DNA from: Microscilla marina ATCC 23134
GTDB lineage: Bacteria; Bacteroidota; Bacteroidia; Cytophagales; Microscillaceae
Reading direction: 5' to 3'
Length of the DNA stretch: 64,000 nt
Assembly: GCF_000169175.1 (NCBI RefSeq)
Contig: NZ_AAWS01000006.1
Location: forward strand, 71,192 to 135,191
Part shown: positions 43,191 to 58,952 of the stretch, one piece after another
Position numbering within the stretch: position 1 is the stretch's first letter
Layout: every line of letters begins with the position of its first letter
Notes under the pieces: generated by a model
Seen by the model: the letters and a program-made list of their open reading frames with translations, nothing else
What the model was told of the DNA's origin: nothing
Databases searched by the model: none
Translations under genes and position numbers: made by a program

Positions 43191-43200
43191 CCTATGACTT

Positions 43201-43238: not shown

Positions 43239-43273
43239 AACTTATGGACATTTTGACCTTGTATTGTTGTTTG

Positions 43274-44592: not shown

Positions 44593-47500
44593 TTGATTAA
44601 CTCAATGAATATTAAAACAGCTATTTACATTCTATTACTGTTTATTACTTCATCATCAGGCTTTGCACAACTACAACATTCACCTCATATCAAGCAATAT
44701 ACTACCGACAATGGATTGCCTCATAACATTGGGTTTGATGTAATCCAAGACAGCAAAAATTATATTTGGCTTGGTACCGATGATGGGTTGGTACGTTTTA
44801 ATGGTAAGCGCTTTAAGACTTATCGAAGCGCTGATGGCTTACTGAGCAATTATATCATCAACCTGACAGAAAGCAAAGAGGGTAAACTATGGATTGGCTC
44901 GTGGAAAGGTGGGCTCAACTATTTATACAACGACTCTATTTTTACCCCTAAACTTGATTACCCACTTTTTCGAGTATCTTATGTAGGTGTTCAGGGTGAT
45001 AAACTGTGGCTATCTGACCGTAGGTCTACACTATACCCTTATACTTATAAAAACAATGAATGGAAGTTTGGCCATCGTAAAAAATCCACTTTCCTGTACC
45101 AAACCAAGGATTCTTTCCCTAGATACAGCCATTATATACCTCCGTCTGAATACTCAAAATCAGGTTATACACGAAAACTAGATTATACCCAAGCCTATCT
45201 TACTACCACCAAAGCTATGTTATTATTTGGTTCACTTCCAGGAGTATGGCAATACCATAATGACACAACTTTCAGTCGTTTTTACCCTAATATAATCAAA
45301 AATGATACAGTATACGACATTTCTCAAGACGCTAACCAAACTTATTGGGTAAGCTGTAAAGGTAAAATTTTAAAAATAGATGCGGCAAAAAATGTAGAGG
45401 TGATTCAAAAGGGATTACCCAATCAAAATATTACCAATGTAGAGGTGACTTCTTCAGGTAAAATCTATTTTATTACAAACTATATCAATCTCAACAACCG
45501 GGGATTTTATAGCTATGACCCTACCACAGCCACTACGGTTGACCTTAAATCCAAACTTGGATTAAAGGTATTGCCAGTAGCAGTAAAAGTAGATCACGAA
45601 GATAATGTGTGGCTTATTACCAATGGTGAAGGAGTGTACTGTATGTTATCTCATCCTTTTACCAATTATGACAAACAAGATGGACTTACAAATATTTTTG
45701 TAAATACAATTAATGAAGATAAAGAGGGAAACATTTATGTAGGTACTATCAATGGGGTATTTGTTTATAAAAACAATGTTTTTTCAAGAAAGTATTTACT
45801 TGGGAAAAATGCTTCAGAGGAAGTAAACAGCATAATAAAAGATAAAAACCAATCATTATTGATTAGCATTTTACAAAATATTAAGCAAGGTTCACAAAGT
45901 CACCTATTCAGGAATACAACGAAAAAAGTTGAAAAACTCAATATCCAGTCGTTTAGTAAAAGCCCATACCTTGATAGTCAAAATAAAATTTGGACATTTC
46001 AAGATAATACTATTGTTTTTTGTGATTATTCTGAGACCAACTCTTTTTATACCAAGAGCTGCAAACTTGGTAAAGACCTAATGATCCATCAAGTATTAGA
46101 GTACCAAGGCAAACATTGGTTAGCTACTAATAAAGGGCTTCTTGCCTTTAAGCATACCATTTTAAGCAATAATAGTCTGGAGATTACCCTTACAGATACT
46201 CTTAATATAGCTGATGGTTTGAGCAGTAATTTTATAAACCAAGTAGCCATAGGTAAAAAAGGAGCACTATGGATAGGCACCAAAGAAGGAATATGTAAGT
46301 GGGTCAATGGAACCATAGCGTGTTTTGGCACTTCAGACGGGCTGGTATCTAACAACTGCAACCAGGTACTGGTAGATCATCAAGGTATTATATGGGTGGG
46401 TACTTCTAAAGGCTTGTCTCGTTTTGATGGCAAGCAATTTATCAACTATACCCATAAAAATGGACTCATTGCTTCTGATATTAACTGTTTGTTTTTAAGC
46501 AATAAAAAACAACTTTGGATAGGTACAAGTAAAGGAGTATCCAGGTTAGACCTTAGTAAACCCTTTAAGAAGGCGGCACCGCCCAAACTATACATAGAAG
46601 ATATTCAGGTCAACGGCATTGATCAGAGATTAAATACTCCCCTTCAGGTTAAATATCACTCTTCCCTTAAGTTGTACTTCTCAGCATTGACTTATACCTA
46701 CAACGAAGGGGTTCGCTATCAGTACCGACTCAAGGGAGATAAGTGGCAAGAAACCAGCCTAGCTTTTGTAGAGTACAGCACCCTTACCAAAGGAACCTAT
46801 ACGTTTGAAGTAAGAGCCAAGAAGTTTAACAGTGTCTGGTCTGCATCTACTAAAATAGTATTTGAGGTAATCCCTCCTTTTTGGGATACCTGGTGGTTCA
46901 AAGTATTGGTAGGTTTAGGCTTTGTTCTACTGGTATACGGCATTGTCAAGTGGCGGTCGCAACAACTGATAAAAGATAAACTTAAGCTAGAACAAGTAGT
47001 AGTACAACGAACTTTTGAGCTTGCCCAACAAAAAGAAGAAATTGCTTCACAAGCAGAAAAGCTTAAAGAAATGGATCAAATAAAATCTCATTTTTTCTCT
47101 AATGTTTCGCACGAACTTCGTACGCCACTTACTCTCATTATTGGTCCTGCCGAACAAATACTTCATTCGGCTGAAAGCACTACCACCCAATCTCACTCAA
47201 AGTCTATATTAAGCAATGCCCAACGCCTTTTAAAGCTGATTAACCAACTGTTAGACTTCTCTAAACTAGAAAGCGGCAAACTGATTTTACAACTTAAAAC
47301 AGGTAAATTTCACGTTTTTTTGAAAAACATTATCTATTCTTTCGAGTTGCTTGCCAATCAAAAAAACATTGGTCTTAAGTTGCTATTGCATCAAGAGGAG
47401 ATAATGGGTGAGTTTGACCATGACAAGCTTGAAAAAGTGTTTTTTAATTTATTGTCCAACGCACTGAAATTTACTCCCGAAAATGGCTTGGTTACAATAG

Positions 47501-48621
47501 AAGTAAAACAAAAAGAGGAGATGGTACAAATCAAGGTATCGGATACAGGGATTGGTATCCCTCCTCAGTCACTGCCTTTTATATTTGACAGGTTTTATCA
47601 GGTAGATGGATCACAAACCAGAACACACGAAGGTACTGGTATTGGGTTGTCACTGGTAAAAGAACTGTTGGAACTACACGGAGGCAATATAAAAGCAAGC
47701 AGTGAAGTGGATAAAGGCACCACATTTTTTATTCAACTCCCCATTGTTTGTCACTCTTCAAAAGCAATGGCTCCTACAAAAGAAACAGCTCTCACGCTGA
47801 CCGACCCAGTAGATATAAATACACAAGAAGATCAAACACCACCTCCTTTGCCAGTTGAGGCAAGTCATACCGTATTGGTGGTAGAAGATAACCATGAACT
47901 CCGACAGTTTATAAGGACAGAACTAGCCGTTACTTATCAGGTAATAGAAGCAGCAGATGGCGTAGAAGGTATTGAAAAAGCTAGCAACCAACTGCCCGAC
48001 TTGATTATAAGTGACCTGATGATGCCAAAAGCTGATGGGTTGGAGTTATTAAGAACACTTAGAAATAACCCACAAACTTGCCACATACCTATCATTATTT
48101 TATCGGCAAAGGCATCTTTTGAGAGTAAAATTACTGGATTAGAAACTGGTGGAGACGACTATCTCACAAAACCGTTTAGTCCTAGAGAGCTTGTGCTTAG
48201 AATAAAAAATACACTGGAAAGAAGGGAAAAACTAAAAGAGGCATTTATGCAGCAAATGGCCAAGCCAGAGCTTGTAGTAGAACCCTCTCAGGTAACGGCT
48301 ACTTCTATGGATGAAGTTTTTTTGACAAAAGCGCTTGATACAGTAGAAGAACACCTCAATAATACAGGGTTTGATGTTTCAGCATTTAGCAAAGAAATGG
48401 GCATGAGTCAATCGGGCTTGTTCAAAAAACTCAAGGCTATTACTAATTTATCTACCACTGAGTTTATTCGTACTATTAGGCTTAAGCGAGCGGCTTCGTT
48501 GATTAAACAAAAAAGTGGCCGTATCGAAGAAATTGCGTTTCAGGTAGGTTTTAATGATGTATCTTATTTTAACCGTTGTTTCAAAAAACAATTTGGAGTA
48601 ACCCCAAAAAAATACCAGTAA
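44593..48621 (+). CDS. hybrid two-component system protein: periplasmic beta-propeller/Y_Y_Y sensor - TM - HisKA/HATPase - receiver - AraC HTH (copy 1)
   Basis: 1342 aa; H-box SHELRTPLT, G-box DTGIGIP, receiver VLVVEDNHELRQF...DLMMP, AraC helix-turn-helix at C-terminus. Confidence 0.85.
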   Translation: MINSMNIKTAIYILLLFITSSSGFAQLQHSPHIKQYTTDNGLPHNIGFDVIQDSKNYIWLGTDDGLVRFNGKRFKTYRSADGLLSNYIINLTESKEGKLWIGSWKGGLNYLYNDSIFTPKLDYPLFRVSYVGVQGDKLWLSDRRSTLYPYTYKNNEWKFGHRKKSTFLYQTKDSFPRYSHYIPPSEYSKSGYTRKLDYTQAYLTTTKAMLLFGSLPGVWQYHNDTTFSRFYPNIIKNDTVYDISQDANQTYWVSCKGKILKIDAAKNVEVIQKGLPNQNITNVEVTSSGKIYFITNYINLNNRGFYSYDPTTATTVDLKSKLGLKVLPVAVKVDHEDNVWLITNGEGVYCMLSHPFTNYDKQDGLTNIFVNTINEDKEGNIYVGTINGVFVYKNNVFSRKYLLGKNASEEVNSIIKDKNQSLLISILQNIKQGSQSHLFRNTTKKVEKLNIQSFSKSPYLDSQNKIWTFQDNTIVFCDYSETNSFYTKSCKLGKDLMIHQVLEYQGKHWLATNKGLLAFKHTILSNNSLEITLTDTLNIADGLSSNFINQVAIGKKGALWIGTKEGICKWVNGTIACFGTSDGLVSNNCNQVLVDHQGIIWVGTSKGLSRFDGKQFINYTHKNGLIASDINCLFLSNKKQLWIGTSKGVSRLDLSKPFKKAAPPKLYIEDIQVNGIDQRLNTPLQVKYHSSLKLYFSALTYTYNEGVRYQYRLKGDKWQETSLAFVEYSTLTKGTYTFEVRAKKFNSVWSASTKIVFEVIPPFWDTWWFKVLVGLGFVLLVYGIVKWRSQQLIKDKLKLEQVVVQRTFELAQQKEEIASQAEKLKEMDQIKSHFFSNVSHELRTPLTLIIGPAEQILHSAESTTTQSHSKSILSNAQRLLKLINQLLDFSKLESGKLILQLKTGKFHVFLKNIIYSFELLANQKNIGLKLLLHQEEIMGEFDHDKLEKVFFNLLSNALKFTPENGLVTIEVKQKEEMVQIKVSDTGIGIPPQSLPFIFDRFYQVDGSQTRTHEGTGIGLSLVKELLELHGGNIKASSEVDKGTTFFIQLPIVCHSSKAMAPTKETALTLTDPVDINTQEDQTPPPLPVEASHTVLVVEDNHELRQFIRTELAVTYQVIEAADGVEGIEKASNQLPDLIISDLMMPKADGLELLRTLRNNPQTCHIPIIILSAKASFESKITGLETGGDDYLTKPFSPRELVLRIKNTLERREKLKEAFMQQMAKPELVVEPSQVTATSMDEVFLTKALDTVEEHLNNTGFDVSAFSKEMGMSQSGLFKKLKAITNLSTTEFIRTIRLKRAASLIKQKSGRIEEIAFQVGFNDVSYFNRCFKKQFGVTPKKYQ

Positions 48622-49062
48622 CTTTGATGAGTTATTGGCAAATACCCCTCACAATCAACCGACAAACAACATTTTAATACAAATTACAGATATGTCTGGT
48701 TTTTTTCAACATACGTCCAAGTATCCCTACCAGGTTTTACCTTCCTTTGCATCATCAAATAATACAAATAACTGGTCGGTTATCAAACTACAAATTGCAA
48801 GTATGGAGCTTGTCTTGTCTTTTTAAGTGTAAGCAAAAACAGTGATTTTTATCTCCTGTTGGTAACCCACTCTTAAAAGTCAAGATAAGTGATGATATAA
48901 GATAAAGCATATTACAAAAGCAGTGATGATTTATCTTCAATAAGTGACTCAAATTTTGAAAGATAAAGGCAAGTTGAAAGGCTTGCCTTTTACTTACTTG
49001 TTGGTTTGTAACGAAGTCCGGCTAACCACTTATTTTACTTAAAACTTAACCAGTATTCATCA

Positions 49063-49407
49063 GTGAATTTAGACGCTATTACCCAAGGTCATTTGGTAAA
49101 AAGAGCCATACTTGACCAAATCATTACTCAGGCTCGTTCTCAAGTACAAGCCACTAACAGCATTTACAATCAATTTAAAAACCTGCTGGACCCTATGGAA
49201 ACCTGGCGGCATGGGCATTATCGTAACCTTGCTTGTATGCTTGATATGTCCATCAATACTCTTAAGTACTATGTACAAGAAGGAGATCACCTCAAACAAA
49301 ACAACAGAAAAAAAATATTGCAATTTTTAGGGTACTCTCCAAACAACTGGGACACACTCGAACAAGAAGCCATATTTAAGTTACTGGCAAAAAAGCTGAG
49401 TGTATAA
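49063..49407 (+). CDS. small hypothetical protein with possible HTH (114 aa)
   Basis: segment YRNLACMLDMSINTLKYYVQEG resembles an HTH. Confidence 0.35.
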   Translation: MNLDAITQGHLVKRAILDQIITQARSQVQATNSIYNQFKNLLDPMETWRHGHYRNLACMLDMSINTLKYYVQEGDHLKQNNRKKILQFLGYSPNNWDTLEQEAIFKLLAKKLSV

Positions 49408-49689
49408 GACACGAACCTAAATTTCAACTCCAAATATTCTTTGCCAAAAAAGTTAAGAAAAAAAATCACAAACTGTTGATTATCAAAGTTTTTATTTTTT
49501 AAATCTTGGTATAAAACCATTGCTTGACCTCCTACTTTTGCAATGTCAAATATAAAGACATTGTACAGTGAATCTCTTGGGAAAACGGGTAAAACGGTGC
49601 TAAACACTTAATTATTTTTTAGCACTATTTATCTATGTAAACAATGAGGGTCAATCATTTCAAACAAAACCAGATTTAATATTTCACTT

Positions 49690-51060
49690 ATGAAACGACA
49701 GTTATCACTCCTCTTAGCAATGGCATGCTTTTGCATAGCTGGTTATGCTCAAACTAATGGTAGTTTTGAAAACCTTACAGGAACCAACCACGGTTTTGCT
49801 TTTTCAGCAGGGCAAGTAGTTGGCTGGAAACAATCGCATGGAACACCCAGCATTGCAGGTGGAGCGCCTGGTCAGGGAAACCGTTCCGCTTGGATGTGGT
49901 CTTACTCTGGCAGAGGCGAGGGTATTGTTCAACCGTATAGTTTCGCGGCAGGGCGTACTTATACCGTAAGCTTTTGGGTAAGAACCAATAATCCTGATGG
50001 ACAGTTTTATATAAAAGCTGCCAATGGTGTACCCAATGGAACCTCTAGTAGCATACCATCGGTCAGTAGTCAAAAAACGATCTACAGCGCAGGATTGGTT
50101 TTTCCAAACTGGACCAAAAGAACCGTTACATTTACAGCTACCAGCAACTACTCTCAGCTGTGGATTTACCCCCAGCTTAATAGTTATCCAAGCAATGGAC
50201 AAGCAGAGTTGATGATGGACGGGATCAGTATTTCTACGTGCACTCCTGTTTCTGTATATGTACCTAACTATAGCTTTGAGAGTTTGACAGGTACTAACCA
50301 TGGTTTTGCTTTTTCGGCTGGGCAAGTAACTGGCTGGAAACAATCGCACGGTACGCCGAGTATTGGTGGAGGAGCTACCGGACAAGGAAGTCGTTCGGCG
50401 TGGATGTGGTCTTACTCTGGCAGAGGCGAAGGCATTGTGACGAATGTGGGGCTTCAAAGTGGTAAAACTTATAAGATCAGGTTCTGGGTAAGAACCAATA
50501 ATCCTGATGGACAGTTTTATATAAAAATTGCCAACAATGTGCCTAGCGGAACATCTACCTCATCTACTATACCATCGGTAAGTAGCCAACAAACCTTATA
50601 TACTTCTGGCTTGAACTTCTCAAACTGGACAGAGAAAACAATTATTTTTAGGGCTAATAACAACTACTCTCAGTTATGGATTTACCCTCAACTTAACAGT
50701 TACCCAAGCAATGGGCAAGCAGAGTTGATGGTAGATGGAATCAGAATTGAGACTGTTTGCCACAAAAAACCTGTGATATGGCCATTGCCTATCAAAGATA
50801 TTAAAGAACTAAAAGTAGCTGTCTATCCTAACCCTACTACTGAACGTATTTCGGTCACTTTACCTACCGAGACAGAGGAAGCTACCATCACGCTTTATGA
50901 CTTGGTCAGTGGTAGAAAAGTAGGCACATTTAAGGCTACTCAAATAGACAACGAATGGAGCATACCTGAGCACATCAAAGGTGGGTTGTACCAAATGGTA
51001 ATCACTGATGCTAAAAACAATGCTACCAAATCTATGAGGTTAGTAGTAAACCGTAAATAA
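49690..51060 (+). CDS. secreted protein with two tandem ~163-aa beta-sandwich-like (CBM/lectin-like) domains and T9SS C-terminal sorting domain
   Basis: 456 aa; signal peptide; duplicated units NGSFENLTGTNHGFAFSAGQV.GWKQSHGTPSI...; C-terminus KVAVYPNPTTERISVTL...LYDLVSGRKV...GLYQMVITD typical Por/T9SS CTD. Confidence 0.75.
   Translation: MKRQLSLLLAMACFCIAGYAQTNGSFENLTGTNHGFAFSAGQVVGWKQSHGTPSIAGGAPGQGNRSAWMWSYSGRGEGIVQPYSFAAGRTYTVSFWVRTNNPDGQFYIKAANGVPNGTSSSIPSVSSQKTIYSAGLVFPNWTKRTVTFTATSNYSQLWIYPQLNSYPSNGQAELMMDGISISTCTPVSVYVPNYSFESLTGTNHGFAFSAGQVTGWKQSHGTPSIGGGATGQGSRSAWMWSYSGRGEGIVTNVGLQSGKTYKIRFWVRTNNPDGQFYIKIANNVPSGTSTSSTIPSVSSQQTLYTSGLNFSNWTEKTIIFRANNNYSQLWIYPQLNSYPSNGQAELMVDGIRIETVCHKKPVIWPLPIKDIKELKVAVYPNPTTERISVTLPTETEEATITLYDLVSGRKVGTFKATQIDNEWSIPEHIKGGLYQMVITDAKNNATKSMRLVVNRK
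49756..50760 (+). repeat. in-frame tandem duplication (2 x ~490 bp) inside the T9SS protein gene
   Basis: unit 1 ~49756-50241, unit 2 ~50266-50760; long stretches identical at nucleotide level (e.g. tggatgtggtcttactctggcagaggcga; aaccaataatcctgatggacagttttatataaaa). Confidence 0.8.
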
Positions 51061-51094
51061 GTAGCATTTACTTACCTATAATATTAATATTTAA

Positions 51095-51125
51095 CCCCTT
51101 GTTGTGAACAACAGGGGGCTTTTTA
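51095..51125 (+). terminator. rho-independent terminator after T9SS protein gene
   Basis: ccccttgttg-tgaa-caacaggggg then CTTTTT. Confidence 0.65.
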
Positions 51126-51140
51126 TATCTCATTTTACAA

Positions 51141-51656
51141 TTGATTATGAAATTTGTGATTAAATATTTGCCCATTTTATTCTGTACATTATTCATTTTT
51201 ACGGCTTGTAATAAAGAAGCAACCCAACCCGATAACAATGACTTGCCACAAACCAAAAGTAAACAAACGTTAGATTGTAATATTACTTATTTGACAAGTA
51301 CTTTTAAGGAAATGACCGTAGGCAACACTGTTACAGCCAGCATTAGAGGGGGCAGAGTGGATACTAAAGTCAAAACTTTTAGTTATAATATAAGCAATGC
51401 TACCAATGCCAACAGAACTTACTTAAAAATAAGTGGTTTTGATGATGGTTGCTCTTGTTACTCTCCTTCTGACGATGCCAACGGTTGCAAAAGGTTGGTT
51501 ATAAAAGATAAGTATGGCAACGTAGTACTCAATACACTTTGTCAGCCAGTAGATAAATTTGTAAAAATTTCAGGTACTCAATTTTCGGTCATCCTCAATG
51601 TGCCTTGTTGGATTGGTGGGAGCTCAGAAGTAAACATTGAAGCAATGGATTGGTAG
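51141..51656 (+). CDS. small Cys-rich lipoprotein, paralog family member A
   Basis: 171 aa; lipobox FIFTACN; shares GCSC...RLVIKD..GN..LNT.CQP..KFV...G..FSV pattern with 56915-57367 and 57457-57963. Confidence 0.65.
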   Translation: MIMKFVIKYLPILFCTLFIFTACNKEATQPDNNDLPQTKSKQTLDCNITYLTSTFKEMTVGNTVTASIRGGRVDTKVKTFSYNISNATNANRTYLKISGFDDGCSCYSPSDDANGCKRLVIKDKYGNVVLNTLCQPVDKFVKISGTQFSVILNVPCWIGGSSEVNIEAMDW

Positions 51657-51683
51657 TTTTAAATATTACTTTACACGCTATTA

Positions 51684-51730
51684 AAACCACGCCTTACTTA
51701 TACAAGCAGGGCGTGGTTTCAGCTATTTTA
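51684..51730 (+). terminator. rho-independent terminator after lipoprotein A
   Basis: aaaccacgcc-(loop)-ggcgtggttt then T-rich. Confidence 0.55.
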
Positions 51731-51949
51731 ACGGTTGAGTTGCTTACCTATTGAACTCAAAAAATGACAGGACATGTGCCTTTTCCTTGTTATTATCCTA
51801 TGCAAATAGCAAAATATCACAAAACACTTCGCTTTTACAGCAACCCTATAAGTCAACAATACGTTTTTCTAAAACAAAATCTCATTACTTGTCCTCTTCA
51901 TGGGTAAGGTTAATCCTTAAAAATCAGTTTTCACCTAATTTCATTCCTT

Positions 51950-52354
51950 ATGATTATTTATGAAAGTCAGTTCATACAAATAGAATTTTTCAAACAAAGT
52001 AATTCATCACTGGTCACCTGGTCATCTAAGTCTATAGATATGGATGAAAGCATCTATAAAACAGAGATGATGAACTACCTTCAGGCGACATTGAAAGCTA
52101 AACCAGATCGAAGTATTATTGATACTCGCCTGCTTAACTTCCCCATTTCTCCTGAGCTCCAAGCTTGGACTAATGAGGCATTCTTCCCTCCGTTATTAAG
52201 CATTGGCTTGACAAAAGCTGCATTTTTAGTCAGTACAGAGTTTGTCACCCAGCTTTCGATAGAACAAACCGTAGAAGATGCTGAAGATAATCCATTCACT
52301 ACCCGGTATTTTGATAATTTAGAAGAAGCTAAAAGTTGGCTCTTAGCCTTGTAA
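51950..52354 (+). CDS. hypothetical protein (134 aa)
   Basis: ORF with coding texture; no motif recognised. Confidence 0.4.
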   Translation: MIIYESQFIQIEFFKQSNSSLVTWSSKSIDMDESIYKTEMMNYLQATLKAKPDRSIIDTRLLNFPISPELQAWTNEAFFPPLLSIGLTKAAFLVSTEFVTQLSIEQTVEDAEDNPFTTRYFDNLEEAKSWLLAL

Positions 52355-52719
52355 CTTCCAAAACAGGCAAATAATGCTGGTGTAGCATTATTTGCCTGTT
52401 TTCATTCATTAAATATACAGTACTGTCCACTGCTGTTTAGCCAGCCATCAAGTCTAACACCTTAACCACTAAATATCTAACTTATTAACCTCAAAAAAAA
52501 CGAATCAAGTTCGGCTTGACACATCTAATACCAAAACTTCCAGTAAACAACCGCTTTAAACGAGCTCTAAAAGAATTTTAAAGCTGAAACAGCAAAAGTT
52601 CAAGAAAAACCACTAGTGTTATTTATTGGGCAACAATAGATATACCTGCCTTGTTGTATGTAGTTATTTTGAATAACTTTATCTATCAAGCAAAACTACT
52701 ACTATTTACTACTTCTTTG

Positions 52720-55700
52720 ATGAGAATTACTGTAACTATAGCTTTACTATCAACCCTTTTACTAAACGGCTGTGGGGTGTTTGCCCAGCCCCAGTTCAAC
52801 GTAAAACACTATACAACTGACAACGGGTTGCCCCATAACATAGGCTATGGGCTACTGCAAGACCGTAAGGGGTATATTTGGATTGGTACTGATGATGGCT
52901 TGGCACGATTTGATGGAAAGAGTTTTAAAGTCTATCGTACTGATGATGGCTTATTGAGCAATTATATCATCGATATAGTAGAAGATCGCCAAGGAGTACT
53001 GTGGTTGGGTAGTTGGAAAGGTGGGGTTAACTGTATAAAGGACGATTCAGTATTTACACCGACGCTTAACAAACCTCTGTTTAGGGTAGCCTATATTGCC
53101 AAGGATAAAAATCAACTATTTTTATCAGATTTAGGTAATACAGTACGTCATTACACCCTCAATAAAAACCAATGGCTCAATCGTCCTTCTGGCTTAGTTT
53201 ACCTTACTCACGACACTACTCTTACCTATGCGCAGAAGAAACAAACTAAAAAACTGATCAATGTACTCAATGTGCAAATACACTTGGCAAGTGATGGTAC
53301 ACCTTTATTTTTTGGCAAATTCCCTGGAGTTTGGCAATACCAAAACGACCAAATTTTTACTCCTTTTTGCAGCAACATTATTCGCAATGATTCTATTACT
53401 CACCTTTCGCAAGATACCCAAGGAAGGTACTGGTTGGGGACTCAAGGCAAAATACTGATAATTGATGCCCAAAAGCAATTGGATAAAACATACCATCATT
53501 TGCCCAATGAAAGTATTTATAGCATAAAAGTAGCCTCTTCGGGCGTGATTTACTTTCTCACTAACTATCACAAATTTAGTCATCGAGGGTTTTATAGCTA
53601 CAACCCAACCACTCAAGAACTAACTGATTTAAAAAAAGCCCTCAAGCTCAAAACAACCCCTGTTGCCATAGAAATAGACAAAGAAGATAATGTATGGCTC
53701 ACTACCAACGGCGATGGAGTGTATTGTATTAGTCCTTCATTGTTTCAACACTACGATCAAAAAGATGGCTTACCCAATGTCTTTATCAGAAATGTAAAAG
53801 AAGATAATGCTGGTAACATATACGTAGGTACTATTGATGGTTTGGTGCGCTACCAAAACGGGAAATTTGTCAATCAACAAGTACTTGACCATTCCTCTCG
53901 CTATCAAGTACTTAGAATGTTTTTAGATCGCCGCCACAATGTTTTGACATCAGTAGCTCCTTCAGAGTTGAATACTTCCAATAACATATTTTTGTATAAA
54001 GTAGCACACAAGACATCAACAAAACTCTACAATGCTTCTTTTTATAACCCATCATATGTAGACCAACAAAACCGCCTCTGGAGCTTTACTAACAAAAGTA
54101 TTTTTTGGTATCCTTACCCAAAAAAATCACCGTTCAAAGTCCCTTATTATTATTTTAAAAAAGGGCTGATAGTCTCACAAATATTTGAGCATGAGGGGCA
54201 ACACTGGCTTGCCTCTAACCAAGGTCTACTGGCTTTTGATACGCATAAGCGTCCAAATTTACGTTTTTTAGATACCCTCAACACTCGCCAGGGCTTGATT
54301 AGTAATGATGTAAATGTGGTAAAAAAAGCGCCTGATGGGGCATTATGGATAGGTACCAAAACAGGGTTGTGTCGCCTTAAAAATGGACAAATCACTTGTT
54401 TTACTCAAGCAAAAGATGGATTGATACATAATAACTGTACCCAACTAGAGTTTGACCGATATAACCGTTTATGGATAGGCACTCTTCAGGGTTTATCGTG
54501 TTTTGATGGACAAAGCTTTATCAATTATAGCCATAAAACAGGACTCATTGCCTCTGACATTAACTGCTTGTTTGCTGATAGTAAACAAAAACTTTGGGTA
54601 GGTACAAGCAAAGGCATATCGGTGTTAGACATTCGTGCATCGCTCAAAAGAATTCCCCTTGCCAAGGTATACATAGACCAGCTTCTACTGAATGATGTGC
54701 CACAAGAGATTCATTCTACACTAAGGGTTAATTATCCCTCTAACCTCAAAATCTATTTTAATGCATTGAGCTATACTTACCCCAAGGGCATAAGGTACCA
54801 ATACCGTTTGAATAAGGGCAAGTGGAAAAACGTCCCCCAGCAAGTAATAGAGTACAACGCTTTTGAACAGGGGAATTATATTATTGAGATAAGGGCTAAA
54901 AAATTTAACAGTGGATGGTCACTGCCTAAGAACATTTTGCTCATTGTACGCCCCCCTATGTGGCTTACCTGGTGGGCAATCAGCTTGTACATTATAGTGG
55001 GGTTATTTATGATGTGGGGGGTGATCAGGTGGCGGTCAGCCACATTGGTAAAAGAAAAACTAAAGCTAGAACAGGTGGTCGTTCAACGAACTTATGAGCT
55101 TGCCCAGCAAAAAGAAGAAATTGCTTCACAAGCCGAAAAACTCAAAGTATTGAACCAGGTACAGTCCAACTTTTTTTCTGGCATTTCGCACGAGTTAAGG
55201 ACCCCACTCACGCTTATTGTAGAACCTGCCGAAAAGCTACTACAATATAACCAAGAAGAGCCTGGGAAAAGGTATACACAAACGATACTTGGCAATGCCC
55301 AACGATTGCTCAGACTTATCAATCAATTGATGGATTTCTCGAAATTGGAAAGTGGTAAAATGACTTTGCAGCTTAGTAACAACAGTTTATACCAGTTGTT
55401 GGTAGAGGTAATAGCATCGTTTGAACTGCTTGCCCAGCAAAAAAACATTGAGCTTAAGCTTACTGCATCAAATCAGGCTTTACACTATAAGTTTGATCAC
55501 GACAAGGTCGAGAAAGTAGTTTTTAATTTAATTAGCAATGCCCTAAAGTTTACCCCAACACAAGGAAACATAGAGGTTCATTTGTGGCAAAGCCCTGATG
55601 AGGTAAAGATCACTGTTACTGATACAGGCATTGGCATTGCTCCTGCAGATTTGCCTTTTGTATTTGATCGTTTTTATCAGGTAGATGGCTCTACTACCAA

Positions 55701-56721
55701 AAACTACCCAGGAACAGGCATTGGGCTTGCCTTGGTAAAAGAGCTGGTAGAGCTACACGAAGGCAGCATTGAAGTAACCAGCCAGGAAAACAAGGGAAGT
55801 ACATTTGTGGTGAAGTTCCCCTTTACCTCAGTCAGTGCTAGTGAGGGCATCTCAGTAGTTATTGATACTCCACTGTATGGTACACCAGTAGCCTCTACCC
55901 CACTAGCAAATGCTTCTCCTGAGCCAGGTAGCCAGCCAGGTACTATCAACCTGCCTACAGTATTAGTCACAGAAGATAATTCTGAGTTACGGCAATTTAT
56001 TGCCTCTGAGCTCATCGGTACTTATCGAGTAATAGAAGCCACCAACGGGGCAGAAGGCATTGAGCGGGCAATCAAGCAGTTGCCCGACTTGATTATCACC
56101 GACATTATGATGCCTCAAACAGATGGTTTTGAGCTGGTAAATACACTCAGGAACAACCCTGCAACAAGCCATATTCCTATCATTATTTTATCGGCTAAAG
56201 CCTCTCCCGAAAGCAAGCTCAAAGGGTTAGAAATCGGGAGTGATGACTACCTTACCAAACCATTTAGCTCAAAAGAACTCTTGCTAAAAGTAAGAAACAT
56301 TATAGGCAGAAAAGAAAAACTATGGCAGGTTTTTCAACAAAGCCTGACTAAACCCAACCTACCTATTGAACCTTCGCAGGTAACTGCCACCTCTATGGAT
56401 GAGGCATTGCTACAAAAAGCACTTGAAATAGTAGAAGTTCACCTTAACAATACCGCCTTTGATGTTACACTTTTTTGTCAGGAAATGGGCATGAGTCGCT
56501 CTAGTTTGCACCAAAAACTCAAGGCTTTGACCAATATGTCTACTACCGAGTTTATCAGAAGCATTCGGCTAAAAAGAGCGGCTTCATTGATTCAACAACA
56601 AAGTGGACGGATAGAAGAGATTGCATTTCAGACAGGCTTCAATGATGTATCTTATTTTAACCGTTGTTTTAAAAAACAATTTGGGATGACGCCAAAAAAA
56701 TACCAACAACCAAATACATAA
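52720..56721 (+). CDS. hybrid two-component system protein (Y_Y_Y sensor-HisKA/HATPase-REC-AraC), copy 2
   Basis: ORF 52651-56721; start moved to MRITVTIALLSTLLLNGCGVFAQ; paralog of 44593-48621 with nucleotide-level near-identity in HisKA region. Confidence 0.85.
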   Translation: MRITVTIALLSTLLLNGCGVFAQPQFNVKHYTTDNGLPHNIGYGLLQDRKGYIWIGTDDGLARFDGKSFKVYRTDDGLLSNYIIDIVEDRQGVLWLGSWKGGVNCIKDDSVFTPTLNKPLFRVAYIAKDKNQLFLSDLGNTVRHYTLNKNQWLNRPSGLVYLTHDTTLTYAQKKQTKKLINVLNVQIHLASDGTPLFFGKFPGVWQYQNDQIFTPFCSNIIRNDSITHLSQDTQGRYWLGTQGKILIIDAQKQLDKTYHHLPNESIYSIKVASSGVIYFLTNYHKFSHRGFYSYNPTTQELTDLKKALKLKTTPVAIEIDKEDNVWLTTNGDGVYCISPSLFQHYDQKDGLPNVFIRNVKEDNAGNIYVGTIDGLVRYQNGKFVNQQVLDHSSRYQVLRMFLDRRHNVLTSVAPSELNTSNNIFLYKVAHKTSTKLYNASFYNPSYVDQQNRLWSFTNKSIFWYPYPKKSPFKVPYYYFKKGLIVSQIFEHEGQHWLASNQGLLAFDTHKRPNLRFLDTLNTRQGLISNDVNVVKKAPDGALWIGTKTGLCRLKNGQITCFTQAKDGLIHNNCTQLEFDRYNRLWIGTLQGLSCFDGQSFINYSHKTGLIASDINCLFADSKQKLWVGTSKGISVLDIRASLKRIPLAKVYIDQLLLNDVPQEIHSTLRVNYPSNLKIYFNALSYTYPKGIRYQYRLNKGKWKNVPQQVIEYNAFEQGNYIIEIRAKKFNSGWSLPKNILLIVRPPMWLTWWAISLYIIVGLFMMWGVIRWRSATLVKEKLKLEQVVVQRTYELAQQKEEIASQAEKLKVLNQVQSNFFSGISHELRTPLTLIVEPAEKLLQYNQEEPGKRYTQTILGNAQRLLRLINQLMDFSKLESGKMTLQLSNNSLYQLLVEVIASFELLAQQKNIELKLTASNQALHYKFDHDKVEKVVFNLISNALKFTPTQGNIEVHLWQSPDEVKITVTDTGIGIAPADLPFVFDRFYQVDGSTTKNYPGTGIGLALVKELVELHEGSIEVTSQENKGSTFVVKFPFTSVSASEGISVVIDTPLYGTPVASTPLANASPEPGSQPGTINLPTVLVTEDNSELRQFIASELIGTYRVIEATNGAEGIERAIKQLPDLIITDIMMPQTDGFELVNTLRNNPATSHIPIIILSAKASPESKLKGLEIGSDDYLTKPFSSKELLLKVRNIIGRKEKLWQVFQQSLTKPNLPIEPSQVTATSMDEALLQKALEIVEVHLNNTAFDVTLFCQEMGMSRSSLHQKLKALTNMSTTEFIRSIRLKRAASLIQQQSGRIEEIAFQTGFNDVSYFNRCFKKQFGMTPKKYQQPNT

Positions 56722-56914
56722 CATACTCAATTACAGTAATTTAAAAACACTTACACATATCTTCAATTTTTCTATACATACGTCCAAGTCTCCCCATTTT
56801 TTTTCCTCTTCCTTTGCATCGCTAACCTACTGAGGCTACAATCATAACTTATGGAGCTTCAGGTATTAGTGTTGAATTATTTAACATTTATTAACAAACA
56901 AAACATAATTCATT

Positions 56915-57367
56915 ATGCAATCTGTATTTAAATACCTTTTAGTTTTTGTATGCGCTGCTTTTATATGTGTATCATGTAATAGCACTGAAGAAGTAAACCC
57001 TGCTACTCAAAATACACCTGAAGCTATCAGTAGTCGTGTGACAGATGATATACTACAAGCTGGTGACGTTGTAACCCCAGGCATTAACAATGGAACCATT
57101 ACTTATAGCTATCAAGTAGAGGGTAACTCTAACACCAGTAGAACCTGGATCAAGGTAAGCGATTTTGCGGAAGGCTGTTCTTGCAGTAGTGACTGCCCAA
57201 GATTAATCATTAAAGATATAAATAATAATACCATACTGGATACTAACTGCCAGCCACTTACTAAGTATGTACGAGTACCTGGCAACTATTTTTCTGTAAC
57301 CATATATGATCCAAGTTGGATGACAAGCAACGGCTCTGATGTTAACATTCAGATTCAGAGCTGGTAG
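56915..57367 (+). CDS. small Cys-rich lipoprotein, paralog family member B
   Basis: 150 aa; MQSVFKYLLVFVCAAFICVSCNSTEE; tandem paralog of next gene. Confidence 0.65.
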   Translation: MQSVFKYLLVFVCAAFICVSCNSTEEVNPATQNTPEAISSRVTDDILQAGDVVTPGINNGTITYSYQVEGNSNTSRTWIKVSDFAEGCSCSSDCPRLIIKDINNNTILDTNCQPLTKYVRVPGNYFSVTIYDPSWMTSNGSDVNIQIQSW

Positions 57368-57456
57368 TGATATACCACCCAAAACCTCATAGGACTTGTT
57401 TCTTACGAGGTTTTTCATCATATCTATTGGTTCTAACAAGCAAAACGTAACTCATT

Positions 57457-57963
57457 ATGCAATCTATGTTCAAATACCTTTTAGTTTTTGTATGTGCAGC
57501 TTTTATATGTGTATCATGCAATACTACCGAAGAGGTCAAGCCGGAGGCTCAAACATCTACTATTAGTAAAATAAATCAACGTTCTACCTGTAGATTAATT
57601 CCTTCAAGTATGCTTCCACAAAACATAACCACAGGTCAAATTGTCACGCCATCTGTTACAGGTAACGGTTCTAATACAATACTCAAAACATTTACTTACA
57701 CAGTAACTAACCCACGTAATGCTTCCAGAGTATGGCTACATGTAAAAGATTTTGTTGATTGGTGTGGCGCTATAGATAACAACGATAGTTCTCCCTATAC
57801 TACCCTGGTGATTAAAGATGCTAATGGCAACGAGTTGTATAACCAAAGTTGTGAAGTAGCCAGGTATGTAAAAGTACCAGGTAATAAATTTACTGTCACC
57901 CTGAAAGTACATTGTGCACTCACTATCACCCCAGAAGCCAATATTGAAGTAACCAATTTGTAA
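57457..57963 (+). CDS. small Cys-rich lipoprotein, paralog family member C
   Basis: 168 aa; MQSMFKYLLVFVCAAFICVSCNTTEE; 5' end and ~20 bp upstream ~90% identical to member B. Confidence 0.65.
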   Translation: MQSMFKYLLVFVCAAFICVSCNTTEEVKPEAQTSTISKINQRSTCRLIPSSMLPQNITTGQIVTPSVTGNGSNTILKTFTYTVTNPRNASRVWLHVKDFVDWCGAIDNNDSSPYTTLVIKDANGNELYNQSCEVARYVKVPGNKFTVTLKVHCALTITPEANIEVTNL

Positions 57964-58021
57964 TCAAATTAAGTAAAGGGTTATATACAATGACCTAATA
58001 CTATCTAAAACCTAACTATAT

Positions 58022-58058
58022 CAGCGATGCTTCTCCTCTGAAAGCATCGCTTTTTTTT
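58022..58058 (+). terminator. rho-independent terminator after lipoprotein C
   Basis: agcgatgctt-ctcctctgaa-agcatcgct then T8. Confidence 0.65.
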
Positions 58059-58075
58059 GTAATAAATACAATTCT

Positions 58076-58627: not shown

Positions 58628-58732
58628 AAATCAGTACCCATTGTAAAATAAGAAGATTCAAATTAATACTAAACCAGCGTATTTTACAGGATAACTTGTC
58701 AATTATCCTAAAAATAGAAATAACATTATCCG

Positions 58733-58910
58733 TTAAGTGATCTGGAAAAAATAAGATGTGCCAATTCAAGAAAATATATTGTTCTCAGACGATTCAAAAA
58801 AAACGGTGCATAGCCAAAGCTATGGAGCTTTTTTTTTGAGAAGAATGAGGGCAATAGATACACTTTAATGGCTCAAATTATTTATGAAAGATCACTAAAG
58901 TTGATCAAAC
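58733..58910 (+). mobile_element. MITE-like element, family B, copy 2 (inverted relative to copy 1)
   Basis: reverse complement matches 23783-23958 with ~2 substitutions and one 3-nt indel; termini AGATCACTTAA / TTAGTGATC; ends ~45-85 nt before next gene start. Confidence 0.6.
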
Positions 58911-58952
58911 TGTTGCTAACAACATGTCATAAAATAAGTATCCAACTAAACG

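What the first reader, a model, noticed from the sequence alone, without database searches (positions are those of the whole stretch)
44593..57963. Duplicated sensor module: two paralogous hybrid sensor-kinase/REC/AraC proteins, each followed by members of a small Cys-rich lipoprotein family and a T9SS-secreted tandem-domain protein, with no SusC/SusD
In Bacteroides, hybrid two-component systems of this architecture (Y_Y_Y beta-propeller sensor, HisKA/HATPase, receiver, AraC) normally control polysaccharide-utilisation loci with SusC/SusD pairs. Here both copies (44593-48621 and 52720-56721) are instead followed by ~150-170-aa lipoproteins (51141, 56915, 57457). These lipoproteins share a conserved Cys pattern: ...GCSC/WCGA..., then (R/K)L(V/I)IKD.NGN.(V/L).N..CQP/CEV, then .(K/R)(F/Y)V.(I/V)(S/P)G..F(S/T)V. 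The first locus also has a small HTH protein and a secreted protein with two lectin/CBM-like domains and a T9SS C-terminal sorting domain. Lipoproteins B and C are a tandem duplication with ~90% nucleotide identity through the signal peptide and ~20 bp upstream. The two sensor genes share long near-identical nucleotide runs in the HisKA region (around 46960-47110 and 55040-55190), which suggests ongoing gene conversion. Together this looks like an expanding sensor/target gene family that has not been described.
Basis: partly seen in the sequence, partly recalled or inferred. Interest (0 to 1): 0.6.

Follow-up and report, generated by a model that had tools for sequence, protein, structure and literature searches.

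The report
Sensor pair controlling orphan surface proteins
Two neighbouring copies of a membrane sensor-regulator in the marine gliding bacterium Microscilla marina are each followed by the same conserved DNA switch, which appears to turn on a small set of genus-specific, fast-changing surface and secreted proteins; this is a modestly new use of a well-known regulator type.

Summary
The window is from Microscilla marina (Cytophagales), not Bacteroides. The described genes are real. There are two AraC-type hybrid two-component sensors (52% identical), three paralogous lipoproteins (34-39%), an XRE-like 114-aa protein and a tandem CBM4_9/T9SS protein. The 64 kb hold no SusC/SusD.

The lipoprotein family is a true orphan: about 11 representative clusters among 1.84 billion. 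Every member found on a contig long enough to show its neighbours lies beside a sensor of this Microscillaceae-specific clade, including one non-syntenic locus. Its predicted fold is a CUB-like beta-sandwich.

A cis element sits just after each sensor gene. It has two 13-bp sites 21 bp apart ([C/G]ATAYGTSCAAG), then a -7-like TTTG box. That is the architecture predicted for Bacteroides HTCS operators. It also precedes lipoprotein genes and the CBM/T9SS gene in other genomes, linking these orphans into one putative regulon.

Gene conversion between the sensor genes is not supported. It is clear at the 5' ends of lipoB and lipoC. The mature part of lipoC through the downstream membrane protein genes is a recombination mosaic between close relatives.

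Verdict: a new variant of a known regulator kind. Ligand and lipoprotein function remain unknown.

The parts
44593..48621 (+). HTCS1: hybrid two-component sensor/regulator. It has a periplasmic Reg_prop beta-propeller plus Y_Y_Y, a TM segment, HisKA, HATPase_c, REC and an AraC HTH. The likely start is the ATG at 44605.
   Evidence: Pfam domains. The H-box SHELRTPL and the REC acidic pocket can be read in the translation. Orthologues are P0010 (88% over the sensor domain, aa 1-780) and P0011 (59%).
48689..48751 (+). Operator/promoter element 1. Distal site GATATGTCTGGTT (48689-48701), T-rich 8-nt spacer, proximal site CATACGTCCAAGT (48710-48722), then CCTTCCTTTGCA with a -7-like TTTG at 48746-48749.
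   Evidence: The 12-nt core (ATACRTCCAAGT) has only two matches in the 64 kb, both exact, even allowing one mismatch. The element is conserved in L001, L002 and L005. All nine instances in the window and L001-L004 have 21-bp site spacing, as do the L096, L097 and L029 elements.
48760..48995 (+). Structured leader or candidate small RNA between element 1 and the 114-aa ORF. It has a conserved block CAGTGATGATTTATCTTCAATAAGTGA and a conserved hairpin plus U-run at about 48965-48993.
   Evidence: Alignment with L001 and L002 shows the block and hairpin conserved; the stem is unchanged and only the loop differs. RNA fold -59.7 kcal/mol, z = -3.7. No Rfam match.
49063..49407 (+). 114-aa orphan protein with an XRE/Cro-type HTH fold (GTG start).
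49690..51060 (+). Secreted protein with two tandem CBM_4_9-like domains (76% identical to each other) and a T9SS C-terminal sorting domain.
   Evidence: Pfam CBM_4_9 38.1 bits and Por_Secre_tail 27.3 bits. TIGR04183 33.5 bits. Repeat identity. In L029 a homologue is preceded by the same operator element.
51095..51118 (+). Intrinsic-terminator-like hairpin between the CBM/T9SS gene and lipoA.
   Evidence: Terminator scan: 10-bp stem, 6 GC pairs, T-run. A similar hairpin precedes lipoA in L002 and L004.
51141..51656 (+). lipoA: small lipoprotein (169 aa from the ATG at 51147). The mature part is predicted to be a 10-strand CUB-like beta-sandwich.
51950..52354 (+). 134-aa cytoplasmic orphan protein upstream of HTCS2, with a sub-threshold SpoIIAA/STAS-like match. 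It is duplicated in L001.
   Evidence: Pfam SpoIIAA-like E = 0.054. L001 has two copies, at 4002-4403 and 4775-5179.
52651..56721 (+). HTCS2: paralogue of HTCS1. The ORF runs from the TTG at 52651; the ATG at 52720 aligns with the HTCS1 start.
   Evidence: Pfam. 52% identity to HTCS1. It has its own orthologue clade: P0027, P0035 and P0031.
56756..56818 (+). Operator/promoter element 2. Distal site CATATCTTCAATT (56756-56768), spacer, proximal site CATACGTCCAAGT (56777-56789), then CTTCCTTTGCA with TTTG at 56813-56816. It lies about 100 nt upstream of lipoB.
   Evidence: In L002 and L004 the two sites are near-identical direct repeats 21 bp apart.
56915..57367 (+). lipoB: 150-aa lipoprotein paralogue, with the N-terminus C-N-S-T-E-E after the lipobox.
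   Evidence: dN/dS 0.11 against L001. The first 66 nt were converted to the lipoC type in the M. marina lineage.
57457..57963 (+). lipoC: 168-aa lipoprotein paralogue. The signal-peptide region is conserved; the mature part is hypervariable between close relatives.
   Evidence: Against L001: signal peptide 97% aa and dS 0.30; mature part 33% aa, dN 0.6 and dS 1.2. The nucleotide match stops at about 57609.
58023..58058 (+). Hairpin AGCGATGCTT..AAGCATCGC followed by T8: a likely terminator of the lipoB-lipoC unit.
   Evidence: Read directly from the sequence printed. The scan did not list it, probably because the loop exceeds its 8-nt limit (my reading).
58076..60098 (+). Two orphan multi-pass membrane protein genes (58076-58627, 183 aa; 58953/58995-60098, about 367-381 aa). 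They belong to the same variable, mosaic segment.
   Evidence: No Pfam family. The 183-aa gene is missing from L001. The larger protein is 72% identical to L001 but 79% to the otherwise more distant L002.

Best explanation
This is a Microscilla-lineage regulatory module built on a known part.

Mechanism proposed:
- Two tandem paralogues of an AraC-type hybrid two-component system (HTCS) sense an unknown periplasmic ligand through their beta-propeller/Y_Y_Y domains.
- After His-Asp phosphotransfer within the same polypeptide, they bind as dimers to a tandem operator. The operator has two 13-bp sites 21 bp apart, consensus [C/G]ATAYGTSCAAG. The promoter-proximal site occupies the -33 position of a Bacteroidetes-type promoter that keeps only its -7-like TTTG box.
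- One such activator-dependent promoter lies directly after each sensor gene.
- The promoter after HTCS2 drives the lipoB-lipoC pair.
- The promoter after HTCS1 drives a structured leader and an XRE-like 114-aa regulator. By read-through or cascade it may also reach the CBM4_9/T9SS protein and lipoA.

Proposed output: a change of the cell surface or secretome rather than nutrient import. The products would be small CUB-like beta-sandwich lipoproteins (probably surface-exposed) and a T9SS-secreted carbohydrate-binding protein. The lipoprotein genes are the fast-evolving end of the module. They exchange 5' ends by gene conversion, and their mature parts are swapped by recombination.

Shown: the domain architectures, the restricted distribution, the sensor-lipoprotein linkage, the conserved cis element and its positions, the predicted folds, and the recombination pattern.

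Inferred: that the HTCSs bind this element, that it is an activated promoter, that the lipoproteins are surface-exposed, and what they bind.
For: 1. The HTCS architecture is complete in both genes.
2. The 12-nt core of the proximal site (ATACRTCCAAGT) matches at only two places in 64 kb, both exact. They lie on the + strand, 89 and 56 nt after the two HTCS stop codons. The coding sequences have diverged to 52% aa identity, so the sites are under selection.
3. All nine instances in the window and L001-L004 have a second site exactly 21 bp upstream. Its PWM score falls in the top 0.005-3.6% of random positions. A TTTG box follows about 20 nt downstream.
4. In L002 and L004, and in the non-syntenic L096, the two sites are near-perfect direct repeats. 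L096 uses a variant half-site, GATATGTGCAA(T/G).
5. Ravcheev et al. 2013 (PMC3878776) predicted that Bacteroides HTCS operators are direct repeats with a mean spacing of 21 bp. They also predicted that paralogous HTCSs within one locus share a motif.
6. The element precedes lipoprotein genes in L003 (twice) and L096. It also precedes the CBM-like T9SS gene and the two 114-aa homologues in L029. One cis element therefore links all three orphan gene types.
7. All 12 lipoprotein family members found with genomic context lie beside an HTCS of this clade.
8. lipoB and lipoC carry a polar residue followed by Glu-Glu at +3..+6 after the lipid Cys. This resembles the Bacteroidetes lipoprotein export signal (PMC5080379).
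9. The predicted lipoprotein fold is a CUB / C-CPE / collagen-binding-domain-like sandwich, a fold class used for binding.
Against: - There are no expression or binding data. The element could be the promoter of an alternative sigma factor, or the site of another regulator.
- lipoA and the CBM gene in M. marina have no element of their own. A terminator-like hairpin lies just upstream of lipoA.
- A conserved terminator-like hairpin lies between element 1 and the 114-aa ORF.
- Most linkage evidence comes from one syntenic locus in closely related genomes. Only L096 and L029 are independent.
- The four AO1-C paralogues of the sensor have neither the element nor the lipoproteins nearby.
- L029 shows the element without an HTCS in the 10 kb available.
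- The lipoA N-terminus (C-N-K-E-A) fits the export signal poorly.
- The fold match is generic (TM about 0.45-0.6) and says nothing about the ligand.
Confidence: 0.55

Rival explanations
1. Co-location without control. The lipoproteins, the 114-aa protein and the CBM/T9SS protein are lineage-specific orphan genes that accumulated in a recombination-prone variable islet which happens to hold two sensor genes. The conserved element is an ordinary or alternative-sigma promoter. The real targets of the HTCSs lie elsewhere in the genome.
For: - The segment is plastic. lipoA is missing from L001, the CBM gene from L002 and the 183-aa gene from L001. The LRR gene is present only in M. marina, and L002 carries HTCS pseudogene fragments.
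- dS is elevated, and the phylogeny is discordant, from lipoB to the 381-aa gene.
- In L029 the element occurs with no HTCS in view.
- The AO1-C paralogues show no fixed neighbour.
Against: - The element has the tandem 21-bp direct-repeat form predicted for HTCS operators, not a two-hexamer sigma promoter.
- It is retained at the same place after both paralogues despite saturated synonymous divergence.
- The half-site sequence differs in L096, where the sensor has also diverged.
- Sensor-lipoprotein adjacency recurs in the non-syntenic L096.
Confidence: 0.2
2. The lipoproteins are accessory sensors rather than outputs. They would be outer-membrane lipoproteins that capture or report a signal to the periplasmic domain of the adjacent hybrid kinase, as RcsF does for the Rcs phosphorelay or NlpE for Cpx. 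They might be autoregulated together with the sensor.
For: - They are small lipoproteins with several Cys, encoded next to a hybrid kinase in every case with context.
- The predicted fold is a binding module.
- That RcsF and NlpE are small disulfide-bonded lipoprotein sensors is my own knowledge. It was not tested here.
Against: - Copy number varies from 0 to 3 per sensor. L001 keeps an intact HTCS1 without lipoA.
- The mature part of lipoC is 33% identical between genomes whose HTCS2 is 89% identical. That is poor co-evolution for a partner.
- Cys positions are not conserved, and one member has none.
- No RcsF or NlpE structure appears among the fold matches.
- The Glu-Glu motif suggests that lipoB and lipoC face outward, not into the periplasm.
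Confidence: 0.1
3. A cryptic glycan-utilisation system. The HTCSs sense an (algal) oligosaccharide as in Bacteroides. The CBM4_9/T9SS protein and the lipoproteins act as surface glycan-binding proteins. The transporter and enzymes (SusC/SusD, CAZymes) are encoded elsewhere under the same operator.
For: - The sensor has the same domain architecture as glycan-sensing Bacteroides HTCSs (PMC3878776).
- CBM_4_9 domains are present.
- The operator form is the same as that of PUL-controlling HTCSs.
Against: - There is no SusC/SusD or glycoside hydrolase in the 64 kb, nor next to any clade member examined.
- The sensor domain is at most 30% identical to anything outside the Microscillaceae clade, so ligand class cannot be transferred.
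- The lipoprotein fold is CUB-like, not a recognised CBM or SusE/F type.
- No further operator sites occur in the window.
Confidence: 0.15

Closest known systems
Bacteroides AraC-type hybrid two-component systems (e.g. BT4663, BT1754, BT4124) and their predicted operators
   Same: - The domain order is identical: Reg_prop propeller, Y_Y_Y, TM, HisKA, HATPase_c, REC, AraC HTH.
- The putative operator is a direct repeat with 21-bp periodicity next to the sensor gene, as predicted for 16 B. thetaiotaomicron HTCSs (PMC3878776).
- Two paralogues sit in one locus with a shared motif, as proposed for BT4111/BT4124.
   Different: - No SusC/SusD, glycoside hydrolase or other PUL gene is under or near the operator.
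- The apparent targets are orphan lipoproteins, an XRE-like protein and a T9SS cargo.
- The sensor domain is at most 30% identical to anything outside a clade of about 30 Microscillaceae proteins.
- The ligand is unknown.
CUB domains, the C-terminal domain of Clostridium perfringens enterotoxin, and the clostridial collagen-binding domain (structural neighbours of the lipoproteins)
   Different: - Sequence identity is 5-16%, and there is no Pfam CUB hit.
- Here the fold is lipid-anchored and stands alone, not as part of a multidomain protein.
- The Cys pattern is not conserved within the family.
Bacteroidetes surface lipoproteins carrying the lipoprotein export signal (LES)
   Same: lipoB and lipoC-type members have a polar residue followed by two acidic residues within +2..+6 of the lipid Cys (C-N-T-E-E or C-N-T-T-E-E). 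This matches the rule in PMC5080379.
   Different: - The acidic pair sits one or two positions further from the Cys than the optimum reported for Capnocytophaga.
- lipoA-type members have only K-E or Q-E.
- No LES has been defined for Cytophagales.
- Surface exposure was not tested.
RcsF / NlpE-type sensor lipoproteins of envelope stress phosphorelays
   Same: They are small Cys-containing lipoproteins functionally tied to a (hybrid) histidine kinase. This comparison rests on my own knowledge, not on a test done here.
   Different: - No sequence or fold similarity was found.
- The genes here sit downstream of an operator-like element, vary in copy number and evolve far faster than the kinase.

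Membership tests
AraC-type hybrid two-component system (HTCS) | Periplasmic two-component-regulator propeller repeats plus a Y_Y_Y domain | tested here: met
   Reg_prop scores 88.7 and 115.8 bits; Y_Y_Y scores 36.2 and 28.5 bits. All are above the Pfam cut-offs in both proteins.
AraC-type hybrid two-component system (HTCS) | HisKA, HATPase_c, receiver and AraC-type HTH in one polypeptide, with the phospho-acceptor His box | tested here: met
   All four domains are above cut-off in both proteins. SHELRTPL H-boxes can be read in the translations. Phosphotransfer itself cannot be tested here.
AraC-type hybrid two-component system (HTCS) | Operator made of two direct-repeat sites about 21 bp apart near the regulated promoter (predicted for Bacteroides HTCSs, PMC3878776) | tested here: met
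   All nine instances in the window and L001-L004 have 13-bp sites with exactly 21-bp spacing, as do the L096, L097 and L029 elements. Binding by the HTCS was not tested.
Polysaccharide utilisation locus (PUL) | Adjacent SusC-like TonB-dependent transporter and SusD-like lipoprotein pair | tested here: not met
   No SusC/SusD family was found in any large ORF of the 64 kb. None lies beside the related sensors in L001-L004, L025-L028 or L096.
T9SS cargo protein (type A CTD) | N-terminal signal peptide and C-terminal Por_Secre_tail sorting domain | tested here: met
   PF18962 scores 27.3 bits against a cut-off of 27. TIGR04183 scores 33.5 bits against a cut-off of 23. The N-terminus MKRQLSLLLAMACFCIAGYAQ is read. 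Secretion was not tested.
Carbohydrate-binding module CBM4_9 | Sequence match to the CBM_4_9 profile | tested here: met
   PF02018 scores 38.1 bits against a cut-off of 25.9, in two stretches. Sugar binding was not tested.
Bacterial lipoprotein | Signal peptide ending in a lipobox with an invariant Cys | tested here: met
   A hydrophobic N-terminus is followed by (V/T)-(S/A)-C. This Cys is the only invariant one in the family. No dedicated predictor was available, and lipidation cannot be tested here.
Bacteroidetes surface-exposed lipoprotein (LES-bearing) | Polar or Lys residue followed by two acidic residues close to the +1 Cys | tested here: inconclusive
   lipoB and lipoC have C-N-(S/T)-T-E-E, and some orthologues have C-N-T-E-E. 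lipoA has C-N-K-E-A. These were compared with the rule in PMC5080379. The position is shifted, and no Cytophagales LES is defined.
CUB domain | CUB fold and a match to the sequence profile | tested here: inconclusive
XRE/Cro-C1 HTH regulators (114-aa protein) | Five-helix HTH_3-type fold and a match to the sequence profile | tested here: inconclusive
HYR_4C / Ig-repeat adhesins | Homology of the lipoprotein to the repeat unit | tested here: not met
   The profile search hits giant repeat proteins only through short multiple stretches. hhalign of the family against P0139 gives probability 1.4%.
RcsF/NlpE-type sensor lipoproteins | Sequence or fold similarity to RcsF or NlpE | tested here: not met

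The most novel reading that the evidence does not exclude
The module is a signal-induced surface-variation system. HTCS sensors switch on a small cassette of hypervariable, surface-displayed CUB-like lipoproteins. Their genes keep a constant promoter, leader and signal-peptide 'handle'. That handle serves as the recombination substrate for swapping mature domains within and between genomes. This would give Microscilla an inducible and diversifiable recognition or evasion surface against phage, grazers or competitors. It would be an output class not previously tied to hybrid two-component systems.
Probability: 0.12. Interest if true: 0.6.

Novelty: new variant of a known kind. Interest (0 to 1): 0.35.

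Why it matters
Hybrid two-component systems are studied almost only as glycan sensors that switch on SusC/SusD loci in gut Bacteroides. This locus offers a compact, testable case in a marine Cytophagales bacterium. The same regulator type, with the same 21-bp tandem operator design, appears wired to orphan surface lipoproteins, a small XRE-like regulator and a T9SS cargo.

It supplies a defined candidate operator ([C/G]ATAYGTSCAAG x2), which could be used to map the regulon genome-wide. It also gives a first functional handle, through inducibility, on a protein family with no annotation.

The recombination pattern is a neat example of localised gene conversion at a signal-peptide 'handle'. The 5' ends stay constant while the mature parts are swapped.

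The value is moderate. The parts are known kinds, the distribution is narrow, and both the ligand and the lipoprotein function remain unknown.

Tried and rejected
1. Gene conversion between the two HTCS genes.
- Sliding nucleotide identity peaks at 0.77-0.85 in 150-nt windows, and the longest exact matches are 26 and 29 nt.
- The same regions are equally conserved between orthologues, and the tree separates an HTCS1 clade from an HTCS2 clade. Rejected.

2. More operator instances in metagenomes.
- All 63 hits lack the distal site, the T-rich spacer and the CTTCCTTTG box. They were judged chance matches.

3. Further operator sites in the window.
- The PWM scan gives nothing above 13.4 bits, against 22.5 for the two real sites.

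4. Remote homologues of the lipoproteins.
- The word-indexed search found 9 proteins. The exhaustive HMMER profile search found about 11 small proteins plus giant Ig-repeat adhesins.
- hhalign does not support homology to HYR_4C.

5. Known RNA families in 43000-61000: none at a meaningful score.

6. The afdb50 fold library was unavailable, so no bacterial predicted-structure neighbours could be checked.

7. The genome-contig scan did not return M. marina itself. Paralogue counts and a genome-wide regulon scan in this genome could therefore not be done.

8. The sigma-70-type promoter scan is uninformative here: 60 hits against 52.7 expected. That scan does not model Bacteroidetes promoters.

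9. Literature searches for this locus or for Microscilla HTCSs found nothing relevant.

Full report
**Source and gene content**

A profile of the three small proteins hits, at 100% identity, proteins named from Microscilla marina ATCC 23134. The window therefore comes from a marine gliding member of the Cytophagales, not from a Bacteroides.

The ORFs in 44.5-60.1 kb, all on the + strand, are as follows:

| Gene | Coordinates |
|---|---|
| HTCS1 | 44593-48621 |
| 114-aa ORF | 49063-49407 |
| 456-aa secreted protein | 49690-51060 |
| lipoA | 51141/51147-51656 |
| 134-aa ORF | 51950-52354 |
| HTCS2 | 52651/52720-56721 |
| lipoB | 56915-57367 |
| lipoC | 57457-57963 |
| Membrane protein genes | 58076-58627 and 58953-60098 |

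**Check of the observation**

- Both large proteins carry Reg_prop, Y_Y_Y, HisKA, HATPase_c, Response_reg and HTH_18/AraC above the Pfam cut-offs. They are 52% identical end to end.
- The 456-aa protein has two CBM_4_9-like repeats and a Por_Secre_tail domain. The two repeats are 76% identical to each other.
- No SusC/SusD-like protein is encoded anywhere in the window. The 1097-aa ORF is AsmA-like, and the other large ORFs are unrelated.
- lipoB and lipoC are 85-91% identical in nucleotides from about -26 to +70 and about 54% beyond.

The 'near-identical runs' in the HisKA region are not there. That stretch is 75-82% identical, with a longest exact match of 26 nt, and a 29-nt match occurs elsewhere. 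It is just as conserved between orthologues as between the paralogues.

**The lipoprotein family is a true orphan, tied to this sensor clade**

- The word-indexed search of 5.8 billion proteins found 9 members.
- An exhaustive HMMER profile search of 1.84 billion cluster representatives found about 11 small proteins. Its remaining hits are giant Ig-repeat adhesins matched through short stretches. hhalign does not support a relationship to them (probability 1.4%).
- Neither Pfam nor NCBIfam has a model for the family.
- Every member with usable context lies beside an HTCS of the same type. The contexts are L001 (an uncultured Microscilla sp. about 90% identical in DNA), L002, L003 (sensor followed by three lipoproteins) and L004.
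- L096 is the most informative. It is a more distant, non-syntenic contig where a FUR gene, an HTCS, one lipoprotein, a 260-aa gene and a second, convergent HTCS lie together.
- Most of this evidence comes from one inherited locus. Only L096 is independent.

**The sensors form a narrow clade in which the absence of SusC/SusD is normal**

The HTCS1 sensor domain finds 28 proteins at 42-88% identity. They come from Microscilla, 'marine bacterium AO1-C', a Microscillaceae MAG and metagenomes. Identity then drops abruptly to 30% or less.

The four AO1-C paralogues sit in four unrelated contexts:
- a MacB-type ABC transporter;
- FG-GAP/CHU_C proteins with PorP/SprF;
- an ATP-grasp MvdD-like cluster;
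- giant DUF6443 proteins.

None of these contexts has SusC/SusD, and none has the lipoproteins. A distance tree separates an HTCS1 clade from an HTCS2 clade, each holding orthologues from several genomes. The duplication is therefore old. It is not an ongoing expansion.

**A conserved cis element links the genes**

The 13-mer CATACGTCCAAGT lies at two places, 89 nt after the HTCS1 stop and 56 nt after the HTCS2 stop, both on the + strand. Its 12-nt core (ATACRTCCAAGT) has no other match in the window even with one mismatch allowed.

Aligning all instances from the window and L001-L003 gives a block of about 70 nt:
- a weaker copy of the site exactly 21 bp upstream;
- a T-rich 8-nt spacer;
- the strong proximal site;
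- about 20 nt further on, C(T/G)TC(C/T)TTTGCA.

The last box resembles the Bacteroidetes -7 box TAnnTTTG. This comparison rests on my knowledge of that promoter type. No -33 TTTG is present; the proximal site occupies that position.

In L002 and L004 the two sites are plain direct repeats, CATACAACCAAGT and CATACGTCCAAGT, 21 bp apart. In all nine instances the -21 position scores in the top 0.005-3.6% of random positions under a matrix built from the proximal sites. No other site in the window comes close.

L096 has the same layout with a variant half-site: GATATGTGCAAT, a spacer, GATATGTGCAAG, then TTGTTTTG.

L029 contains a homologue of the CBM/T9SS protein (58-60% identical to each repeat), followed by two homologues of the 114-aa protein. 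The element there is ATATGACCAAC, 10 nt, ATATGTCCAAG, then CCGTCTTTTG. It lies about 100 nt upstream of the CBM-like gene, just after a terminator hairpin.

One element thus precedes lipoprotein genes, the 114-aa gene and the CBM/T9SS gene in different genomes.

Ravcheev et al. 2013 predicted that all 16 HTCS motifs they found in B. thetaiotaomicron are direct repeats with a mean distance of 21 bp. They also predicted that paralogous HTCSs within one locus share a motif (PMC3878776). The element here has that form.

That the HTCSs bind it is an inference.

**Likely transcription units**

- Element 2 lies about 100 nt upstream of lipoB.
- A weak hairpin separates lipoB from lipoC. A strong hairpin followed by T8 follows lipoC (sequence).
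- Element 1 is followed by about 310 nt before the 114-aa ORF.
- That leader holds a 27-nt block invariant between M. marina and L002, plus a hairpin and U-run whose stem is conserved while only the loop differs.
- The leader folds well (z = -3.7) and matches no Rfam family. It may be a small RNA or an attenuator.
- The CBM gene has its own canonical TAnnTTTG box at -157.
- lipoA is preceded by a terminator-like hairpin, so the link between lipoA and element 1 is uncertain.

**What the products look like**

- The AlphaFold model of lipoA has pLDDT about 88 over the mature part and is a ten-strand beta-sandwich.
- These are generic binding modules with 5-16% identity. The fold suggests binding but names no ligand. 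It is neither a recognised lectin/CBM family nor a protease-inhibitor family.
- After the lipid Cys, lipoB and lipoC read N-(S/T)-T-E-E. This resembles the Bacteroidetes lipoprotein export signal, a polar residue followed by two acidic residues (PMC5080379). lipoA fits the signal less well.
- The 134-aa protein has a sub-threshold SpoIIAA-like match.

**Evolution of the locus**

Values against L001:

| Gene or region | dS | Other values |
|---|---|---|
| HTCS1, 114-aa, CBM, 134-aa, HTCS2 | 0.18-0.41 | dN/dS 0.03-0.15 |
| lipoB | 0.75 | - |
| lipoC signal peptide | 0.30 | 97% aa identity |
| lipoC mature part | about 1.2 | dN 0.6, 33% aa identity |
| 381-aa membrane protein | 0.78 | 72% aa identity to L001 |

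The nucleotide match with L001 stops about 155 nt into lipoC. The 381-aa protein is closer to the otherwise more distant L002 (79% aa) than to L001 (72%).

This is the signature of allelic replacement by recombination, with one breakpoint just after the signal peptide. It is not simply fast divergence.

Within M. marina, the first 66 nt of lipoB are 89-91% identical to lipoC-type genes of three genomes, but only 68-71% identical to its own orthologues. Its upstream 26 nt remain of the lipoB type (96% to L001). The upstream 26 nt of lipoC have become lipoB-like.

It is not a recent tandem duplication.

Gene content also varies:
- L001 lacks lipoA and has a second copy of the 134-aa gene;
- L002 lacks the CBM gene and has HTCS pseudogene fragments;
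- the LRR gene at 60245-62185 is present only in M. marina.

**Interpretation**

The best-supported reading (confidence about 0.55) has two parts. The two HTCS paralogues activate promoters directly downstream of themselves through a tandem 21-bp operator. The output is a small set of lineage-specific surface or secreted proteins and a small regulator, not a nutrient-import locus.

Three rivals remain:
- co-location in a plastic islet, with the element belonging to another regulator (0.2);
- a cryptic glycan system whose transporter genes lie elsewhere (0.15);
- lipoproteins acting as co-sensors in the manner of RcsF or NlpE (0.1).

The co-sensor rival is weakened by variable copy number, non-conserved Cys residues and very poor co-evolution with the sensor.

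**Comparison with what is known, and novelty**

The sensors pass every testable membership criterion for the HTCS family, including the operator form. The locus fails the defining criterion of a PUL.

The lipoproteins are an undescribed family with a CUB-like predicted fold. The T9SS cargo and the CBM domains are ordinary members of their families.

I file the whole as a new variant of a known kind. A familiar regulator with its familiar operator design is wired to an unfamiliar, narrowly distributed and recombining output.

Interest is moderate (0.35). The cis element makes the regulon hypothesis directly testable. However, the distribution is confined to Microscilla and close relatives, nothing here contradicts current understanding, and the biological function remains unknown.

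Noticed in passing
window 48760-48995 (+): A structured leader of about 235 nt lies between the HTCS1-downstream promoter-like element and the 114-aa ORF. It has a 27-nt block invariant between M. marina and L002, and a conserved hairpin plus U-run whose loop alone varies. The fold z-score is -3.7 and there is no Rfam match. It could be a small RNA or a transcription attenuator.
   Followed up: partly
window 56889-56985 and 57431-57527: There is reciprocal gene conversion between the 5' regions of lipoB and lipoC, specific to the M. marina lineage. The lipoB signal-peptide codons are of the lipoC type (89-91%, against 68-71% to its own orthologues). The 26 nt upstream of lipoC are of the lipoB type.
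   Followed up: yes
window 57609-60235, compared with L001 and L002: This is a mosaic segment. The mature part of lipoC has no nucleotide match in L001, although the flanks are 88-94% identical. The 183-aa membrane gene is missing from L001. The 381-aa membrane protein is closer to the more distant L002 (79% aa) than to L001 (72%).
   Followed up: partly
window 60245-62185 (-): A 646-aa leucine-rich-repeat protein gene lies in the lowest-GC stretch of the window (0.31). It is absent from the syntenic position in L001 and L002, where the membrane protein gene abuts the methylmalonyl-CoA mutase gene. It looks like a strain-specific insertion.
   Followed up: no
L001 4002-5179; L002 4338-5604: Two cases of locus plasticity. 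The close relative L001 has a second copy of the 134-aa SpoIIAA-like gene where M. marina has lipoA. L002 carries two ORF fragments with Reg_prop repeats, remnants of a third HTCS, between lipoA and HTCS2.
   Followed up: partly
L029 7800-10474: In a more distant metagenomic contig, the operator-like element precedes a T9SS protein whose N-terminal domain is 58-60% identical to each CBM-like repeat of the window protein. Two paralogues of the 114-aa protein follow. No HTCS lies in the 10 kb upstream, and the contig ends just downstream.
   Followed up: partly
L027 12047-15735: In 'marine bacterium AO1-C', one paralogue of the sensor is followed by 1.4 kb with no called gene and then an ATP-grasp MvdD-like gene with two small ORFs. 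This may be a graspetide-type peptide cluster with unannotated precursor genes.
   Followed up: no
window 51141-51656, compared with P0139: There is a motif-level resemblance between the lipoproteins (KTFSY.V...RT, RLIIKD..GN) and the repeats of a 1772-aa HYR_4C protein (TRTFTYNYTD, PVIKDACGN). It produces a multi-stretch HMMER hit, but hhalign gives only 1.4% probability.
   Followed up: yes
L096 7288-8070: A 260-aa orphan protein is encoded between the lipoprotein gene and the convergent second HTCS in the non-syntenic locus. It was not analysed.
   Followed up: no
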